From Acidimicrobiales bacterium (GTDB lineage Bacteria > Actinomycetota > Acidimicrobiia > Acidimicrobiales > CADCSY01): a stretch of DNA of 64,000 nt. Both the position numbers and the translations under genes were made by a program. The notes under the pieces were generated by a model that saw nothing but the letters and a program-made list of their open reading frames with translations, was not told the origin of the DNA and did no database searches. This document shows positions 2,938 through 51,149 of this stretch, piece by piece. Position 1 is the first letter of the stretch, and the number at the start of each line of letters is the position of its first letter. The DNA is taken from the NCBI GenBank assembly GCA_035942035.1, contig DASZDK010000063.1, positions 3,823 through 67,822 on the forward strand, written 5' to 3'.

Positions 2938-3141
2938 TGGCGGCGTCTCCTTCCCTCGGGGACGGGCCGTGCGTCTCCTGCCGGAAGGCAGTGCGCAGCC
3001 GTGGTGAGGAGGGCGGCGATCCGACGGGGGCGGCACAGGTAGCAACGGCAAAGTCCCTGCTCACGGCGCATTATTACAGTGCAGCCGTACTAGAATTGGC
3101 CGACAGTTAGCTGTGTGCGGCATGTAGTGAGTAGGACCCTA

Positions 3142-46309: not shown

Positions 46310-46912
46310 CTGCCGCACTACTTCGATCCCGAGCCGTCGGCGGCGTCCGATCGCCAGACGATCACGCTGGCCCTTCCCGACGTCAACCTCGAGCTCACCA
46401 CCGACCGCGGCGTGTTCTCCCGCACTGGCATCGACCCCGGGACCAAGCTGCTGCTGCTCGAGGGGCCGCCGCCGCCGGCCGAGGGCGACCTGCTCGACTT
46501 GGGCTGCGGCTACGGCCCCATCGCCCTCACGCTGGCCCGCCGGTCCCCCGCCGCAACCGTCTGGGCGGTCGACGTGAACCGCCGGGCCCTCGGTCTGGTC
46601 GAGGACAACGCCGCCGCCGCCGGCATCGAGAACGTGCGCCCCGCCGCTCCCGAGGACGTCCCGGCCGAGGTTCGCTTCGCCGCCATCTGGTCGAACCCAC
46701 CGGTGCGCGTGGGCAAGGAGCAGATCCATGCCATGCTCCGCGCCTGGCTCCGCCGCTTGCAGCCGGACGGCACCGCCTGCCTGGTGGTGCACAAGCACCT
46801 GGGCGCCGACTCCCTGGCCCGCTGGCTGGCGGGCGAGGGGTTCGCCACCCGCCGACTGCGGTCCCGGATGGGCTACCGCCTGTTGGAGGCTCGACGGGAG
46901 ACCACCGCATGA
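46310..46912 (+). CDS. Class I SAM-dependent methyltransferase, RsmC/RlmG 'small domain' type (no canonical start; CTG 46310 proposed)
   Basis: HYFDPEP...TDRGVFS, DLGCGYGPI, WSNPPVRVG. The only upstream in-frame canonical start (ATG 46151) would overlap prfC by 158 nt. Confidence 0.8.
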   Translation: MPHYFDPEPSAASDRQTITLALPDVNLELTTDRGVFSRTGIDPGTKLLLLEGPPPPAEGDLLDLGCGYGPIALTLARRSPAATVWAVDVNRRALGLVEDNAAAAGIENVRPAAPEDVPAEVRFAAIWSNPPVRVGKEQIHAMLRAWLRRLQPDGTACLVVHKHLGADSLARWLAGEGFATRRLRSRMGYRLLEARRETTA

Positions 46913-47463
46913 AAAACCTGGGAGACACCGACCTGAAGCGCCTGCACCGCCAGTGGCGGCGGCGGACCACCGGCCGCCTGGCCCTGCTGCTCGACTCGGT
47001 CCAGACGCCGTTCAACGTCGGCGCCATCGTTCGCATGGCGGCCGCCGAGCGGGTCGAGCACCTGTACGTGGCCGGCGCCTCCGCCGCACCCGACCATCCC
47101 CGCTCCCGCAAGACCTCGCTCGGCACCGAGCGGTCGGTGCCCTGGACCGGCTACGAGACCGCCGCCGCCGCCCTGGCCGCGGTGCGCGACGCCGACCTGT
47201 TCCTGCTCGGGATCGAGCTGGCCGACGGTGCCGTACCCCTCCACGAGGTGGCCCTCCCCGCCGACGTCTGCCTGGCCCTCGGCCATGAGGACCGGGGGCT
47301 GTCGGCTCGCACCCTCGAGGCCTGCGACGCCGTGGCCTTCGTCCCCCAGCTCGGTCGGGGCGGGTCCCTCAACGTCGCCTCCGCCGCCGCCATCGCCATG
47401 TACGAGGTGCGGCGCCGGGAGTGGTCGTCGACGCCGGCCGACGAGGCCCCGGCGTCGCCCTAG
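46909..47463 (+). CDS. SpoU/TrmH family RNA methyltransferase
   Basis: ATGA overlap with the upstream gene. FNVGAIVRMAAA, LGHEDRGLS, GSLNVASAAAIAMYE. The TAG stop lies inside the CTAG target duplication of the transposon. Confidence 0.85.
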   Translation: MKNLGDTDLKRLHRQWRRRTTGRLALLLDSVQTPFNVGAIVRMAAAERVEHLYVAGASAAPDHPRSRKTSLGTERSVPWTGYETAAAALAAVRDADLFLLGIELADGAVPLHEVALPADVCLALGHEDRGLSARTLEACDAVAFVPQLGRGGSLNVASAAAIAMYEVRRREWSSTPADEAPASP

Positions 47464-47471
47464 GAGGGTCC
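47459..47471. repeat. Left copy of a 13-bp perfect inverted repeat (CCTAGGAGGGTCC), read as CTAG target duplication plus the IR-L terminus
   Basis: The exact reverse complement is at 50081..50093. Inward similarity continues, with 14 of the first 17 element bases matching. Confidence 0.6.
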
Positions 47472-47639
47472 GGCGATTCGACCGGTGAAAGTCGGCGGGA
47501 TCACGGCCGGATGCTACGTCGACACCCGGACAGGCGGTGAGGACGCATGAGTAACGCCCGCATGGCGTTTGCGGACGCGACAAGGCGCCGAGGGGCGCGC
47601 TTCACCCTCGGCGGTCCTACTGGTCGGGATAGAGCGGCG

Positions 47640-48758
47640 CTACGCCGCGAGCGGAACGGCGCGGGCTTTGGCCAGCGCCACGGCAAGCCGAGACAGGATC
47701 GTCAGGTCGGCGTGCAGCCGTACCCGCTCGATCCGACGCACCCGGAGGGGCAGCAGCGCCCATTCGTGCTTCAACCGGCCGAAACCTCGCTCGACGCCAC
47801 CACGGCTCCGGTAAAGGGCCTTCCAACGGGCCGTCTCCCGAGGGATGAGGGTGTGCAGCCGGTCAGCCTTGATCCACACGCTGGCCGGGGAGCACTCGCC
47901 AGAGGGGCAGCGGTACTTGGCCGCTCCACGCTTGGCGTCGGAACCGGCGGAGGTCCACCGGCCGTGCTCGCACGAAGGGGGCAGGTGCTAACCAGCCACG
48001 ACCTTGCCGGTCATGCGGAGCGGTGCCACCGGTCGGACGTTGCGAGCCTCGCACGCTTCGTAGAACGAACCGGCGTCGTAGCCCTTGTCAGCGATGCAGA
48101 CGGAAGGCGTGATCCCGTAGCCGGCCAGCTTGTCCGGCAGCGCCGGAACGACCGGGACCTTTGCGTCTCGCGCCGTGTGCGTCTCCCACGCCACCGGAAG
48201 GTCAGTGGCCGTGCAGACGGCAGCGTGGAGTTTGTAGCCGTAGAACCCTCCGCCCTTGCGGGTGGAGACGGCCGAACGGTGGCCCCACGACGCGTCGGGG
48301 TCAGAGAACCGCTCCCGCAGCTTTCCGCCCTTGCACACGAGCCGCTGGCCGTTGGCGTAGGCGGGAAGATCGGAGCCGTCGATGGCGACGTGCTCGCCGT
48401 ACTCAGGCAACTCGACGTGCAGGGAGGCGATGACGGCTGCGATGCAGGTGTCCAGCGCACCCCTGTGCTCGCGCAGCTTGCGGGTGAAGCGGTAGCAGGC
48501 GTCAACCGAGGGAGCGCCACCGATGGCCTTGCGGAGCGCAGCGTGCTCGCCTACCAAACGAACGGTGCGGGTCCACGTCGGCAGCACGTAGAGCGACTTC
48601 ACCAGCGTCATGCCCACCATCGTGCGGATGGGGTAACCAGGGCGCCCGGTGCAGCGCGTCGCTTGAAGATCGGCGATGAGAGCGGCGACCTCCGGGCTAC
48701 GGAAGCAGGCTCGCAAGCTGTTCGGCGTCGCGCCGAGGAGTACGGTGGCCTTGGCCAT
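47640..48758 (-). pseudogene. IS5/IS1182-like DDE transposase interrupted by one in-frame TAG (47990..47988)
   Basis: ORFs 47988..48758 and 47640..47879 share one frame. DUF772-like N-terminus (GRPGYPIRTMVGMTLVKSLY) and a DDE triad context: AIDGSD, IADKGYD, VERGFGRLKHEW. Confidence 0.85.
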
Positions 48759-48907
48759 GGAGGTGCAACTCCTTGGTCCAGACCCCGGGAGGTTGCCGCC
48801 TCGCCGGGGTCACTCCTTCGTTTAGGTCGTCCTACCTCTCATACTACGAGAGGGGTGGGACAGTAATGAACCCGTTGCGCCCACCTATTGAAGCGAAATA
48901 CCCCTCG

Positions 48908-49756
48908 TTACGCAGCTGGCTCGAAATCGCGGAGCAGTTGGGCGAACAGAGTACCAGCGGCATCAAGGAACTCCACGGGGCCCCATACATACTCAGGCGG
49001 CATCCCCAACGCTGTGGGGGATTCCAGGATGACTTTCCCGGTGACTTGGATATTGAAGTCACAATCGGGATGAGGGCCGGTGGGTACCACGAAGGCTCTC
49101 AATACTTCCACGTCCGGCTCCAGCACACGCAGGTCGCCGTTGATCTCCACGGAAACGAGCGACCCGTCCGGCATTGGACGGCTACCGGGTTGGCAGTCGC
49201 GGTATGCGCTGAGGAGGTGCTGGTATGTGCTCTGATGAGCAACATCAGTGACAACATGCAAGAGTCGGTGTTTGTCGATGTTGGAAAACACGGTGAGGTC
49301 GAAGAACGCATTTCGTTCGCTCGGCCCACGCGGGTTGAACGGCTGGTCCCGTTTCAAGAAGGCCTTGTCCTCGGCGGTCATCTGCTGAGTGTGCCGGTGT
49401 CCTTCCCAATCGTGCTCACTCATGACCACCGGGAATTGGACCGAGCGAGCCAGTTTCTCGGCTGGCTCTCTGCCGTCGTTAAAACGAATGGCAAGCTGCC
49501 ACGCCAAATGATCAACGACGCACCGGAGATTGTGGAGGGCATCTCCGAGGATGAGCGCCCAGTCCTCCGGTACTTCGGGGACTTCTTTGATGCGACAGAC
49601 AACGGCTTGCTCCTCAGCGTCGTATTCACGCCAAACGGGGATACCGTCGGTGTAGGGCTTCCATGCCTCAGCAATCTCACCACGCAGCCGGTCGGCATGG
49701 TGTTTCGCTCTAGCGAGCTTTGCCCAGCAGCTTGATAAGTCGAGTTGATAGGTCAC
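48908..49756 (-). CDS. Hypothetical passenger protein of the transposon (start uncertain; frame is open to TTG 50014)
   Basis: The lowest-GC gene in the window by eye, with real-looking composition. AAGGGG lies before GTG 49756. Motifs NLRCVVDHL (Rx4H) and SNIDKHRLLH. Confidence 0.65.
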   Translation of the reverse strand: MTYQLDLSSCWAKLARAKHHADRLRGEIAEAWKPYTDGIPVWREYDAEEQAVVCRIKEVPEVPEDWALILGDALHNLRCVVDHLAWQLAIRFNDGREPAEKLARSVQFPVVMSEHDWEGHRHTQQMTAEDKAFLKRDQPFNPRGPSERNAFFDLTVFSNIDKHRLLHVVTDVAHQSTYQHLLSAYRDCQPGSRPMPDGSLVSVEINGDLRVLEPDVEVLRAFVVPTGPHPDCDFNIQVTGKVILESPTALGMPPEYVWGPVEFLDAAGTLFAQLLRDFEPAA

Positions 49757-50080
49757 GATGCCCCTTACGCTTCCCTTTCGCGTCGGTCCCACAACGCAAA
49801 AGGGCCACCCGGCGAGGGGGGGCCCAAAGAGAAGGACGGCGCTGCTCTTGACAGCGTCTTCGATCGGTCCGGGAGGCTCCCCGTGCCGGTCGGCTCCGGT
49901 GCTCACCCTGGCAGGGGTGGGCACCTTCGCGTTGGCGCGCGCGAGGCTACCGGTCGGAATGACAAACGGTGTCGATTTTGTTATTCGCTGCCCCGTGGGG
50001 TAGCCGACCGGCAATCGTGAGGTACTGCCAACCCCGCTACCGGCGAACGGACGCCCCTACCTGCGCCGACGCGTTTCGCT

Positions 50081-50093
50081 GGACCCTCCTAGG
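50081..50093. repeat. Right copy of the 13-bp perfect inverted repeat (GGACCCTCCTAGG), read as the IR-R terminus plus CTAG
   Basis: Reverse complement of 47459..47471. Confidence 0.6.
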
Positions 50094-50113: not shown

Positions 50114-50422
50114 TCACCCCCATACCGCTTCCAGGGCCACCAGCATCGCCATCCCGACCACCAGGGTCACCCCCACGTTGCGGGTGCGCCACGCCACCAG
50201 CGCCGCCACCACCCCGGCGAACAGTCGTGGCTGGAGCAGGTGCAGCTGCCCCTCGGGCCGAACCAGCGCCGGCACGACGAGGGCGGCCAGCGCGGCCGGG
50301 GGGATCTGGCGCAGGAGGCGTGCCACACCGGGCGGCACGTGTGCCAGGCGGTGGGCGGCGGCGAGGAACGAGGCGCGCATGGCGTAGGTACCCACCCCGG
50401 ACACCACGATGGCCAGCCACAC
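50114..50422 (-). CDS. azlD: AzlD-like branched-chain amino-acid exporter small subunit
   Basis: About 100-aa, 3-4 TM protein directly after azlC. GTG start at 50422. Confidence 0.8.
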   Translation of the reverse strand: MWLAIVVSGVGTYAMRASFLAAAHRLAHVPPGVARLLRQIPPAALAALVVPALVRPEGQLHLLQPRLFAGVVAALVAWRTRNVGVTLVVGMAMLVALEAVWG

Positions 50423-50426
50423 CCCG

Positions 50427-51149
50427 CTACTCACGGGCCGTCCGGTCGGGACGGTGCCCGGCGCGCTCCGCGAGTGCGTCGACGACCGCTCCCGAGGCGA
50501 TGCCCAGTGCGGCACCGATCACGATGGACAGCGGCCCGGCGCCCAGCTGGGCGGCGGCGACGGCGCCTGCGCCCCCGATCACCGCCGCGGCCACGGCGGG
50601 GCGGGTGGTGACCAGCGGGACGAGCAGCACGAGGAAGACCAGCGGCACGGCGAAGTCGAGGGGGAGCTCCGCGGGGACGGCCCCGCCCAACACCACGCCG
50701 GCGATGGTGGCCGCTTGCCATGCCACCCACAGCACGACCGCGCCGCCCAGGTAGAAGGACAGGCGCGCCTCGGGGTTCCCGCCGCCGGCCCACCGGGCGA
50801 TCGAGAGTGCATAGGCCTGGTCGGTCAGCAGGTAGGCGGCACCGAGGCGACGAGCGAGGCGCTCATGGCGCAGGTACGGCCCCAACGACGCCGAGTACAG
50901 CACCATGCGCAGGTTGATGGTCCACGCCACCAGGACGGCGGCGAGGGCGGAGCCGCCGTTGGCCAGCACCTCGGCGGCGGCGAGCTGCGAGGCGCCGGCG
51001 AACACGATGGTCGACAGGCCGAGCGCCGCCCATCCGCCGAGGCCCCCGGCGACCGGCGCGGCGCCGGCCACCAACCCGAAGGGCACGACACCGAGGAGCA
51101 TCGGTGCCACGGCGACGGCCCCGGCACGGGCTTCGGACAACGACCACAT
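50427..51149 (-). CDS. azlC: AzlC family branched-chain amino-acid transport protein
   Basis: PFGLVAGA...FAGASQLAA...LRMVLYSASL...LLTDQAY pattern. Confidence 0.88.
   Translation of the reverse strand: MWSLSEARAGAVAVAPMLLGVVPFGLVAGAAPVAGGLGGWAALGLSTIVFAGASQLAAAEVLANGGSALAAVLVAWTINLRMVLYSASLGPYLRHERLARRLGAAYLLTDQAYALSIARWAGGGNPEARLSFYLGGAVVLWVAWQAATIAGVVLGGAVPAELPLDFAVPLVFLVLLVPLVTTRPAVAAAVIGGAGAVAAAQLGAGPLSIVIGAALGIASGAVVDALAERAGHRPDRTARE

What the first reader, a model, noticed from the sequence alone, without database searches (positions are those of the whole stretch)
47460..50092. 2.6-kb IS5-like transposon with passenger gene, CTAG target duplication, inserted exactly at the stop codon of a SpoU methyltransferase
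A 13-bp perfect inverted repeat (CCTAGGAGGGTCC at 47459..47471, with its reverse complement at 50081..50093) brackets the only clearly lower-GC stretch of the window. I read this as a CTAG direct duplication (47460..47463 and 50089..50092) plus terminal inverted repeats GAGGGTCC(G/A)GCGA(TT/AA)CG, which are 8 bp perfect at the tips and match at 14 of 17 positions. This fits IS5-group elements, which duplicate YTAR tetranucleotides. Inside are a DDE transposase and a second unrelated gene. Removing the element reconstructs ...TCGCCCTAGGCACC.... The methyltransferase keeps its TAG stop only because the target duplication supplies it.
Basis: partly seen in the sequence, partly recalled or inferred. 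Interest (0 to 1): 0.55.

Follow-up and report, generated by a model that had tools for sequence, protein, structure and literature searches.

The report
Cargo-carrying insertion sequence, transposase now dead
A 2.6-kb jumping gene carrying one extra gene of unknown function sits on the stop codon of a methyltransferase gene; its transposase is now broken, and it belongs to an undescribed actinobacterial lineage in which every copy I could delimit carries variable, mostly defence-type cargo.

Summary

**The element.** Window 47464-50088 is one transposable element. It has 17-nt imperfect terminal inverted repeats (GAGGGTCC...) and a 4-bp CTAG target duplication. The left CTAG supplies the TAG stop of the SpoU gene.

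**Contents.** It holds a 373-codon DDE transposase of the IS5/IS1182 superfamily and an intact 282-aa passenger gene.

**New findings:**
1. The transposase is a pseudogene: a GAG/AAG-to-TAG nonsense codon at position 257 plus a compensated -1/+1 frameshift. The lesions are identical in three further assemblies.
2. Relatives with non-palindromic flanks (CTAA/CTAA, ATAG/ATAG) prove a 4-bp duplication.
3. All 45 related elements with both ends found (2.05-5.7 kb) carry extra DNA upstream and/or downstream of the transposase. Cargo includes Xre-type regulators, DNA methylases, Mrr nucleases, PIN toxins and antitoxins.
4. The passenger family recurs in 10 elements of this lineage, in an IS1595 element with an 8-bp duplication, in Gordonia phages and in a conjugative element. 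It has no Pfam match and no PDB fold match.
5. CTAG is 5- to 12-fold depleted in these genomes, and about half of the insertions lie on TAG stop codons.

No empty site was found. I class it as a new variant of a known kind, the transporter IS.

The parts
46909..47463 (+). Flanking host gene: SpoU-family RNA 2'-O-methyltransferase, 184 aa. Its TAG stop (47461-47463) lies inside the left target-site copy.
   Evidence: PF00588, E = 5.3e-31. The MTS-SpoU gene pair is conserved in 80 related loci.
47460..47463 (.). Left copy of the 4-bp target-site duplication, CTAG.
   Evidence: Family-wide, 36 of 45 elements have CTAG/CTAG; the CTAA/CTAA and ATAG/ATAG cases prove direct duplication.
47464..47480 (+). 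Terminal inverted repeat at the transposase-distal-3' end (IRR in the transposase orientation), GAGGGTCCGGCGATTCG. It is followed by a subterminal repeat of the CCGG(C/T)GA motif at 47483-47489.
   Evidence: The same terminus occurs in L004, L005, L007, L008, L014 and L044.
47640..48758 (-). DDE transposase pseudogene, 373 codons, IS5/IS1182 superfamily. It has an in-frame TAG at codon 257 (47988-47990). A 1-nt deletion near 48738/48739 and a 1-nt insertion near 48702 scramble codons ~8-19.
   Evidence: translation. (PF01609, PF05598). (IS1182 127 bits against cut-off 270; IS5_4 55 against 140). (K/E/R at that column in 108 homologues). (DNA alignment with L086, L004, L005). (same lesions in three other assemblies).
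48781..48811 (-). Conserved hairpin in the transposase leader (GACCCCGG-C-GAGG-CGGCAA-CCTC-CCGGGGTC). It lies just 5' of the Shine-Dalgarno AAGGAG (48769-48774) and marks the inner edge of the upstream cargo slot.
   Evidence: 8 of 11 pairs show compensatory double changes in 59 family members; homology between copies starts here; no Rfam match.
48908..49756 (-). Passenger gene: intact, 282 aa (GTG start at 49756, AAGGGG 5 nt upstream), 58% GC. It belongs to an unannotated family with the signature GDxxHNLR ... FP ... QP ... NxDKHRL.
   Evidence: No hit in Pfam, NCBIfam, PADLOC or PHROGs. dN/dS = 0.39 against L086. Model pLDDT 86.8 with no PDB match and two phage matches.
50072..50088 (-). Terminal inverted repeat at the cargo end (IRL in the transposase orientation), GAGGGTCCAGCGAAACG on the minus strand.
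50089..50092 (.). Right copy of the target-site duplication, CTAG.
50114..50515 (-). Flanking host gene: AzlD-family branched-chain amino-acid transport protein, convergent with SpoU. In the reconstructed empty site only 21 nt separate the two stop codons.
   Evidence: PF05437, E = 1e-21. Coordinates.

Best explanation
Window 47464-50088 is a single 2,625-bp transporter insertion sequence (tIS), meaning an IS that carries a passenger gene inside its terminal repeats. Its DDE transposase belongs to an undescribed clade of the IS5/IS1182 superfamily, found in MAGs labelled Acidimicrobiales, Solirubrobacterales, Thermoleophilaceae and other Actinomycetota.

**How it inserted.** Like IS5, this clade inserts at the tetranucleotide CTAG (rarely CTAA or ATAG) and duplicates it. 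CTAG is 5- to 12-fold depleted in these high-GC genomes. About half of the surviving insertions lie on C+TAG stop codons. Here the element landed on the stop codon of SpoU, in a 21-nt gap before the convergent AzlD gene. The duplication regenerated the stop, so neither host protein changed.

**Architecture.** The order is: terminal repeat, a variable cargo slot, a conserved leader hairpin with the ribosome-binding site, the transposase gene, a second optional cargo slot, terminal repeat.

**Cargo.** In this copy the cargo is one 282-aa gene from an unannotated family associated with mobile elements. I infer that it gives the element or its host a retention advantage through defence, exclusion or addiction. 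That step is inferred, not shown.

**Current state.** The transposase has since been inactivated by a nonsense codon and a frameshift pair, while the passenger ORF stays intact under moderate purifying selection. The element is therefore now an immobile, fixed relic unless a transposase is supplied in trans.

Shown: boundaries, duplication, family architecture, transposase lesions, recurrence of the cargo family. Inferred: the historical transposition event, the passenger's function, the role of the hairpin.
For: - **Boundaries and duplication:**
- **Independent copies with the same termini and CTAG flanks:** L004 and six others. A matrix built without flank information finds both ends in 45 of 82 loci. 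Of these, 36 are CTAG/CTAG, one is CTAA/CTAA and one is ATAG/ATAG.
- **Transposase identity:** PF01609 and PF05598. Thousands of ~372-aa uninterrupted homologues exist.
- **Lesions:** in-frame TAG where 108 homologues have K, E or R; a -1/+1 indel pair; identical sequence in three other assemblies.
- **Cargo is part of the unit:** no internal terminus; L086 is 92% identical and collinear over passenger, leader and transposase 5' end; 0 of 45 delimited relatives lack extra DNA.
- **Cargo content:** HTH/Xre, N6_N4 methylases, Mrr_cat, PIN, SocA/Panacea, IrrE-like proteins.
- **Passenger family recurrence:** 10 elements of this clade, on either side of the transposase; an IS1595 tIS with an 8-bp duplication, AACAATGA; Gordonia phage gp32; a conjugative element; a Streptomyces plasmid region rich in transposases.
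- **Stop-codon bias:** 16/33 insertion sites against 28/128 other CTAGs (p = 0.004), or 27/33 against 57/128 by ORF length alone (p = 0.00015). CTAG counts are 13 against 163 expected in the window and 224 against 1034 in the host flanks.
- **IS5 duplicates CTAG:** PMC10379815.
Against: - No empty site was recovered. The closest SpoU relatives are at most 75% identical and lack AzlD downstream, so the insertion event is reconstructed, not observed.
- Only one insertion site of this exact element is known. All other contigs carrying it are the same locus, and L086 lacks flanks.
- Almost all duplications are CTAG, so they cannot certify that a given left and right end belong together. The statement 'no cargo-free copy' therefore rests on matrix-called ends in 45 of 82 loci.
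- The transposase fails the curated IS5 and IS1182 cut-offs, so its family placement is approximate.
- The passenger's function is untested, and the HEPN idea failed.
- dN/dS of 0.39 rests on only 41 differences.
Confidence: 0.85

Rival explanations
1. The passenger gene is not part of the IS. Under this view, an ordinary ~1.5-kb IS inserted next to a resident or separately acquired gene, and the outer repeat at 50072-50088 is a solo end or a chance match.
For: The passenger has a distinctly lower GC (58%) than the transposase (69%), which suggests a different origin. Homologues also exist as stand-alone chromosomal genes.
Against: - No terminus-like sequence lies between the passenger and the transposase.
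- The CTAG duplication flanks the whole 2,625 bp.
- L086 keeps passenger, leader and transposase collinear at 92% identity.
- All 45 delimited relatives enclose cargo within the same termini.
- No SpoU relative has the passenger.
- The 13-mer pair is not a chance match.
Confidence: 0.03
2. The duplication is only TA (or is a 6-bp CCTAGG), and the outer C...G (or more) belongs to the inverted repeat. The element would then not be IS5-like in target choice.
For: CTAG and CCTAGG are palindromes, so in the window alone these readings cannot be told apart from a 4-bp duplication.
Against: - L004 has CTAG followed by T, which excludes CCTAGG.
- L037 has CTAA on both sides and L072 has ATAG on both sides. 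These are direct, non-palindromic repeats of all four bases, which is incompatible with outer bases belonging to an inverted repeat.
Confidence: 0.03
3. The transposase is still functional. The in-frame TAG would be an assembly error or is read through, and the N-terminal difference is natural variation, so the element is an active tIS.
For: Termini and duplication are perfect, and the frameshift pair restores the frame after ~12 codons.
Against: - The same TAG and indels appear in three other assemblies from different samples at 99.9-100% identity.
- None of 108 full-length homologues has a stop there.
- The truncation removes the C-terminal part that carries the near-invariant D274 and E323.
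- No recoding signal was looked for or seen.
Confidence: 0.05
4. Domestication. The element is retained because the host benefits from the passenger gene, or from altered 3' expression of SpoU or AzlD. Under this view, transposase decay reflects selection on the cargo only, not recent neutral decay.
For: The passenger ORF is intact with dN/dS of 0.39 while the transposase has three lesions. The insertion is fixed in three samples.
Against: The ORF may be intact simply because the insertion is young. The dN/dS comparison is with another IS-borne copy (L086), not a domesticated one. No expression or phenotype data exist. This is a refinement of the best explanation rather than an exclusive alternative.
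Confidence: 0.25

Closest known systems
IS5 of E. coli and the IS5 subgroup of the IS5 family
   Same: It has a DDE transposase with a DDE_Tnp_1 domain and an N-terminal DUF772. It makes a 4-bp target duplication with CTAG as the preferred target (IS5/CTAG in PMC10379815). It has short imperfect terminal repeats beginning GA/GG (the ISfinder feature is from my own knowledge).
   Different: - The protein scores only 55 bits against the best IS5 NCBIfam model (cut-off 140) and scores higher against IS1182.
- The transposase is ~372 aa, with a Cys/His-rich insert (CEHGRW...YRCPSGEC).
- The elements are 2-5.7 kb because every delimited copy carries cargo, whereas IS5 is a 1.2-kb single-gene IS.
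- The hosts are uncultured high-GC Actinomycetota.
IS1182 family
   Same: This is the best-scoring curated model (NF033551, 127 bits, matching the C-terminal catalytic half). Distant plasmid hits are annotated IS1182 or IS5/IS1182.
   Different: The score is far below the 270-bit cut-off. The protein is ~115 aa shorter than the 488-position model, and only residues 151-355 align.
Transporter IS (tIS) of the IS1595 and IS66 families
   Same: The architecture is the same: one transposase gene plus passenger gene(s) enclosed by a single pair of terminal repeats and one target duplication (definition in the TnCentral preprint, 10.1101/2021.05.26.445724). The window's passenger family is itself carried by an IS1595 tIS (L002).
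   Different: [quoted passage not shown]
- Here cargo is found in every delimited copy (45/45), in one or both of two slots flanking the transposase, and is dominated by defence and addiction-type genes.
Defence or 'moron' genes of temperate actinobacteriophages (Gordonia phages Samba and ZiggyZoo, gp32)
   Same: The passenger is homologous to gp32 in sequence (25% identity over 180 aa, E = 4e-8) and matches two unnamed phage proteins in BFVD in fold (A0A514TZW7, E = 5e-13, TM 0.66), which I did not map to gp32. gp32 is a reverse-oriented insert among tail genes near the integrase.
   Different: Neither protein has a demonstrated function. The carrier is a phage rather than an IS.

Membership tests
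IS5 family (IS5 subgroup) | DDE transposase with a DDE_Tnp_1 (PF01609) catalytic domain | tested here: met
   PF01609, E = 2.7e-12 and 1.4e-6 on the two ORF halves; PF05598 (DUF772) at the N-terminus.
IS5 family (IS5 subgroup) | 4-bp target-site duplication, preferentially CTAG/YTAR | tested here: met
   CTAG on both sides in the window. 36 of 45 relatives are CTAG/CTAG, plus one CTAA/CTAA and one ATAG/ATAG.
IS5 family (IS5 subgroup) | Protein reaches the curated score of an IS5-family model | tested here: not met
   Best IS5 model is NF033581 at 54.6 bits against a cut-off of 140; the others score 30 bits or less.
IS5 family (IS5 subgroup) | Compact 1-1.5-kb element that encodes only the transposase | tested here: not met
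   The element is 2,625 bp with a second, unrelated gene. Relatives span 2,053-5,672 bp.
IS1182 family | Protein reaches the curated score of NF033551 | tested here: not met
   127.4 bits against a cut-off of 270. Only residues 151-355 align, to model positions 249-478 of 488.
Transporter IS (tIS) | Passenger gene(s) enclosed with a single transposase gene by one pair of terminal inverted repeats and one target duplication | tested here: met
   No internal termini.
Transporter IS (tIS) | Passenger and transposase move and evolve as one unit | tested here: inconclusive
   L086 is collinear at 92% identity, and family-wide cargo lies inside the termini. However, only one insertion site of this exact element is known and no empty site was found.
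HEPN-domain RNase (considered for the passenger protein) | Conserved R-x4-6-H catalytic motif | tested here: not met
   R78 is conserved (57/61), but H83 is present in only 17 of 61 members.
HEPN-domain RNase (considered for the passenger protein) | Sequence or fold similarity to known HEPN families | tested here: not met
   No Pfam, NCBIfam or PADLOC hit. No PDB sequence hit. No Foldseek PDB hit with E below 0.5, using a model of pLDDT 86.8.
Known anti-phage defence systems (PADLOC) - passenger protein | Match to a model of a described defence protein | tested here: not met
   0 families at E up to 1. By contrast, cargo of sister elements does match control proteins, methyltransferases and others.

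The most novel reading that the evidence does not exclude
This IS5/IS1182-type clade may be a dedicated cargo shuttle. It would be an IS lineage in which carrying a small defence or addiction module, in one of two slots beside the transposase, is the rule rather than the exception. Cargo would be exchanged with unrelated IS families (IS1595), phages and conjugative elements. CTAG targeting in CTAG-depleted genomes would act as a safe-harbour strategy that parks the element on stop codons. The window's passenger would then be the founding member of a new single-gene defence or exclusion family, with a fold not represented in the PDB and an invariant H-N-x-R / D-K-H-R catalytic cluster.
Probability: 0.3. 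Interest if true: 0.7.

Novelty: new variant of a known kind. Interest (0 to 1): 0.5.

Why it matters
IS elements are usually treated as bare transposase carriers. A 2021 curated resource (TnCentral) lists IS with passenger genes as confined to the IS1595 and IS66 families.

Here an abundant IS5/IS1182-type lineage of soil Actinomycetota carries cargo in every copy that could be delimited. Much of that cargo is restriction-modification, toxin-antitoxin or regulator genes. At least one cargo family is shared with an IS1595 element, phages and a conjugative element.

If general, simple IS would be a significant vehicle for spreading mini defence systems in uncultured high-GC bacteria. Their cargo slots would be a cheap place to mine new defence genes; the 282-aa passenger, which has no PDB fold match, is one candidate.

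The link between CTAG and stop codons gives a simple, testable explanation for why these elements sit harmlessly at gene ends.

For this particular window the practical conclusion is modest. It is a fixed, transposition-dead relic that leaves both neighbouring proteins unchanged.

Tried and rejected
1. **HEPN RNase assignment for the passenger.** The idea came from NLRCVVDH. I rejected it because H83 is not conserved and no Pfam or fold support exists.
2. **Fold assignment by Foldseek against the PDB.** Two models (pLDDT 74 and 87) gave nothing below E = 0.5. The PDB sequence profile search also found nothing.
3. **Empty-site search through SpoU relatives in metagenomes.** The 80 loci keep MTS-SpoU synteny, but none has AzlD downstream, so no empty site is available.
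4. **Extra copies.** The window has none. The contigs L001/L184, L185 and L186 proved to be the same locus. The multi-contig counts for P0174 and P0190 reflect one chromosomal locus seen in many samples, not multiple copies.
5. **First inverted-repeat finder.** An exact 8-mer seed worked only for the seven closest loci. I replaced it with a position weight matrix built without flank bases.
6. **dN/dS for the transposase 5' end against L086.** This is invalid because of the indel pair; I discarded it.
7. **Annotated collections.** Plasmids hold only a fragment of this clade, in Iamia, so they provide no ISfinder-style name.
8. **Other scans.** Rfam found nothing. The promoter and terminator scan found nothing above chance.
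9. **Literature.** Searches found no description of cargo-carrying IS5/IS1182 elements. The library lacks the main ISfinder reviews, so absence is weak evidence.
Full report
**1. Observation.**

The sequence is as described. CCTAGGAGGGTCC lies at 47459-47471 and its reverse complement at 50081-50093. That gives CTAG at 47460-47463 and 50089-50092. Inside these flanks are the arms GAGGGTCCGGCGATTCG and GAGGGTCCAGCGAAACG, which match at 14 of 17 positions with the first 8 perfect.

The 13-mer occurs twice in 64 kb against 0.11 expected, and 0 of 100 shuffles gave two matches. No other zero-mismatch terminus exists in the window.

The GC minimum of the whole window lies inside the element. Values are 58% against 72% overall, with the transposase part at 68.7% and the passenger at 58.2%.

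**2. Contents.**

All genes in the element are on the minus strand.

The two ORFs at 47988-48758 and 47640-47879 are one 373-codon frame interrupted by TAG at codon 257. This frame carries DDE_Tnp_1 and DUF772. Its best curated model is IS1182 at 127 bits against a cut-off of 270. The next is IS5_4 at 55 bits against 140. It therefore belongs to the IS5/IS1182 superfamily but is not a certified member of either family.

Thousands of uninterrupted ~372-aa homologues exist in Actinomycetota metagenomes. At the stop column, 108 homologues have K (72), E (18), R (7) or other residues, and never a stop.

A DNA alignment with three relatives shows two further lesions. These are a 1-nt deletion and, 37 nt downstream, a 1-nt insertion, which scramble codons ~8-19. 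The same sequence occurs in three further assemblies, from at least two other samples, at 99.9-100% identity. The lesions are therefore real, and the transposase is a pseudogene.

The second gene (49756 to 48908, 282 aa, GTG start with AAGGGG upstream) is intact.

**3. Boundaries and duplication, tested on relatives.**

The closest transposase (P0018, 87% identity) lies on a contig that reads CTAG|GAGGGTCCGGCGAAACG ... CGATTCGCCGGACCCTC|CTAG-T. This is an independent 3,875-bp copy whose right flank excludes a CCTAGG duplication.

From 80 genome loci I built a matrix of the 18 terminal bases, without flank information. It finds both ends in 45 of 82 loci.

| Flanks (left/right) | Elements |
|---|---|
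| CTAG/CTAG | 36 |
| CTAA/CTAA | 1 |
| ATAG/ATAG | 1 |
| One-base mismatch between flanks (ATAG/ATAA, TTAA/CTAA) | 2 |
| TTTG/CTAG (flanks differ at three positions) | 1 |
| AATT/AATT (a divergent subclade) | 4 |

The non-palindromic direct repeats prove that all four bases are target duplication. They belong neither to the inverted repeat nor to a 2-bp TA duplication. This matches IS5, for which CTAG is the reported duplication (PMC10379815).

**4. The passenger is inside the unit, and cargo is the rule in this clade.**

There is no terminus between the passenger and the transposase. L086, from another sample, is 92% identical and collinear across passenger, leader and transposase 5' end.

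Across the 45 delimited relatives:
- The distance from the left end to the transposase start is 198-3,898 bp.
- The distance from the stop to the right end is 174-1,935 bp.
- The total length is 2,053-5,672 bp (median 3,137).
- None is near the ~1.5-kb minimum.
- Twelve have extra DNA upstream only, 7 downstream only and 26 on both sides.

I called 142 cargo ORFs, which fall into 89 clusters. Pfam and PADLOC scans of 136 of them find:
- Xre-type HTH or 'control' proteins (9)
- N6_N4 DNA methylases (6)
- Mrr_cat nucleases (4)
- PIN toxins (3)
- SocA/Panacea, IrrE-like peptidase, DUF3800, SSB, HSDR_N and others

This is a defence and addiction-type repertoire. Homology between copies resumes about 10 nt upstream of a leader hairpin and extends only ~35-40 nt in from the left tip. 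These limits define the cargo slot.

**5. The passenger family.**

Cluster 1 contains the window gene plus nine others. They lie upstream of the transposase in the window and L008, and downstream in L009, L017, L030, L034, L045, L060, L067 and L080. These copies share only 20-23% identity with the window protein, although their transposases are 56-74% identical to P0018, the window's closest intact relative.

In contrast, the 55%-identical homologue P0004 lies inside an IS1595-family element. That element is bounded by ~28-bp imperfect repeats and an 8-bp duplication, AACAATGA. The cargo has therefore been exchanged between unrelated IS families.

Other members occur in several settings:
- Alone between housekeeping genes
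- In a conjugative element beside a relaxase
- On a Streptomyces plasmid amid transposases
- As gp32 of temperate Gordonia phages, reverse-oriented among tail genes

None of 73 database members has a Pfam domain or a name.

The conserved signature is G71-D72-x2-H75-N76-L77-R78, F108-P109, Q138-P139 and N159-x-D161-K162-H163-R164-L165. The R-x4-H motif that suggested HEPN is not conserved, because H83 is present in only 17 of 61 members.

A confident model (pLDDT 86.8, pTM 0.83) matches no PDB structure; the best E-value is 0.55. It does match two unnamed phage proteins, with E = 5e-13 at TM 0.66 and E = 1e-4.

dN/dS against L086 is 0.39, based on 23.5 non-synonymous and 17.5 synonymous differences. 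I infer a defence, exclusion or addiction role from this context, but nothing here demonstrates it.

**6. Why the insertion sits on a stop codon.**

CTAG occurs 13 times in the window against 163 expected from base composition. In the host flanks of the relatives it occurs 224 times against 1,034 expected.

I reconstructed the empty sites and asked whether the insertion CTAG provides the TAG stop of a long ORF.

| Criterion | Insertion CTAGs | Other CTAGs in the same flanks | Fisher p |
|---|---|---|---|
| Coding-like ORF of at least 100 codons | 16/33 | 28/128 | 0.004 |
| ORF length alone | 27/33 | 57/128 | 0.00015 |

The window case fits this pattern. The CTAG at the SpoU stop is the only CTAG in the short gap before the convergent AzlD gene, where 21 nt would separate the two stops in the empty site. 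The left duplication copy keeps the stop, so SpoU is unchanged.

Whether the enrichment reflects target choice or the survival of harmless insertions is not resolved.

**7. What could not be shown.**

No empty site was found. SpoU relatives (at most 75% identity) keep the upstream MTS gene but have other downstream neighbours, and none has the passenger or the transposase. Only one insertion site of this exact element is known.

**8. Comparison and novelty.**

The element behaves like IS5 in its CTAG target, 4-bp duplication and GA... termini. Its architecture is that of a transporter IS. [quoted passage not shown] I found no paper describing cargo-carrying IS5/IS1182 elements, although the main ISfinder reviews are not in the searchable library.

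I therefore class it as a new variant of a known kind. The individual element in this window is an ordinary, dead, fixed insertion. The interest lies in the lineage and in its cargo family.

Noticed in passing
window 48781-48811 (minus strand), with SD at 48769-48774 and the start codon at 48756-48758: There is a conserved hairpin in the transposase leader (GACCCCGG-C-GAGG-CGGCAA-CCTC-CCGGGGTC). Across 59 family members, 8 of 11 pairs show compensatory double changes; one pair appears as GC 24, UA 14, CG 13, AU 7. It has no Rfam family. Downstream, the SD GGAG is followed by a complementary CTCC just before the start codon in most copies, which could occlude the ribosome-binding site. It may act as an insulator or translational control element for the transposase.
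   Followed up: partly
whole window; CTAG at 3090, 12332, 25442, 40906, 47460, 49710, 50089, 53026, 55845, 56729, 60329, 60641, 61761: CTAG is about 12-fold under-represented: 13 observed against 163 expected from base composition. It is 4.6-fold under-represented in the 382 kb of host flanks of related elements. Several of the remaining sites are TAG stop codons of long ORFs.
   Followed up: partly
L002 4864-6932 (JGI 3300044801, Ga0480579_000139): This is an IS1595-family transporter IS of about 2.07 kb, with ~28-bp imperfect inverted repeats and an 8-bp duplication, AACAATGA. It carries a 55%-identical homologue (P0004) of the window's passenger. That is closer than any homologue carried by the window's own IS lineage.
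   Followed up: yes
L004 1-3883 (GCA_017884105.1, JAGELI010004630.1): The closest intact relative of the element is 3,875 bp, with an uninterrupted transposase 87% identical to the window's. Instead of the window's passenger it carries an N6_N4 DNA methyltransferase (527-aa ORF) and a 169-aa unannotated protein. It would be a good candidate for a transposition assay.
   Followed up: partly
L065, L070, L075, L077 (also L068, L076, L078), element ends: A divergent subclade (56-58% transposase identity) has CTAATT|GAGGG ... CCCTC|AATTAG at its ends instead of CTAG. Either the target and duplication changed to AATT within CTAATTAG, or the termini grew by several bases. This is not resolved.
   Followed up: no
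L037 4666-5148, L048 4422-4985 and about 20 other elements (cargo clusters 0 and 2): Pairs of adjacent small genes (~80-100 aa) recur as cargo, often downstream of the transposase on the opposite strand. Nine of the 136 cargo proteins scanned match Xre-type HTH or 'control protein' models, but I did not map those hits to these clusters. They could be toxin-antitoxin pairs or element-encoded regulators.
   Followed up: partly
L183 3953-4780 (Gordonia phage Samba gp32; also ZiggyZoo gp32): A homologue of the passenger lies in temperate Gordonia phages. Together with gp33 it is oriented opposite to the surrounding tail genes and lies a few genes from the serine integrase. This is the typical placement of prophage-expressed accessory or defence genes.
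   Followed up: partly
window 48829-48861: An imperfect inverted repeat (GTCCTACCTCTC ... GAGAGGGGTGGGAC) lies ~50 nt downstream of the passenger stop and just upstream of the conserved transposase leader. It is a possible terminator for the passenger, but it has no T-run and the terminator scan did not call it.
   Followed up: no
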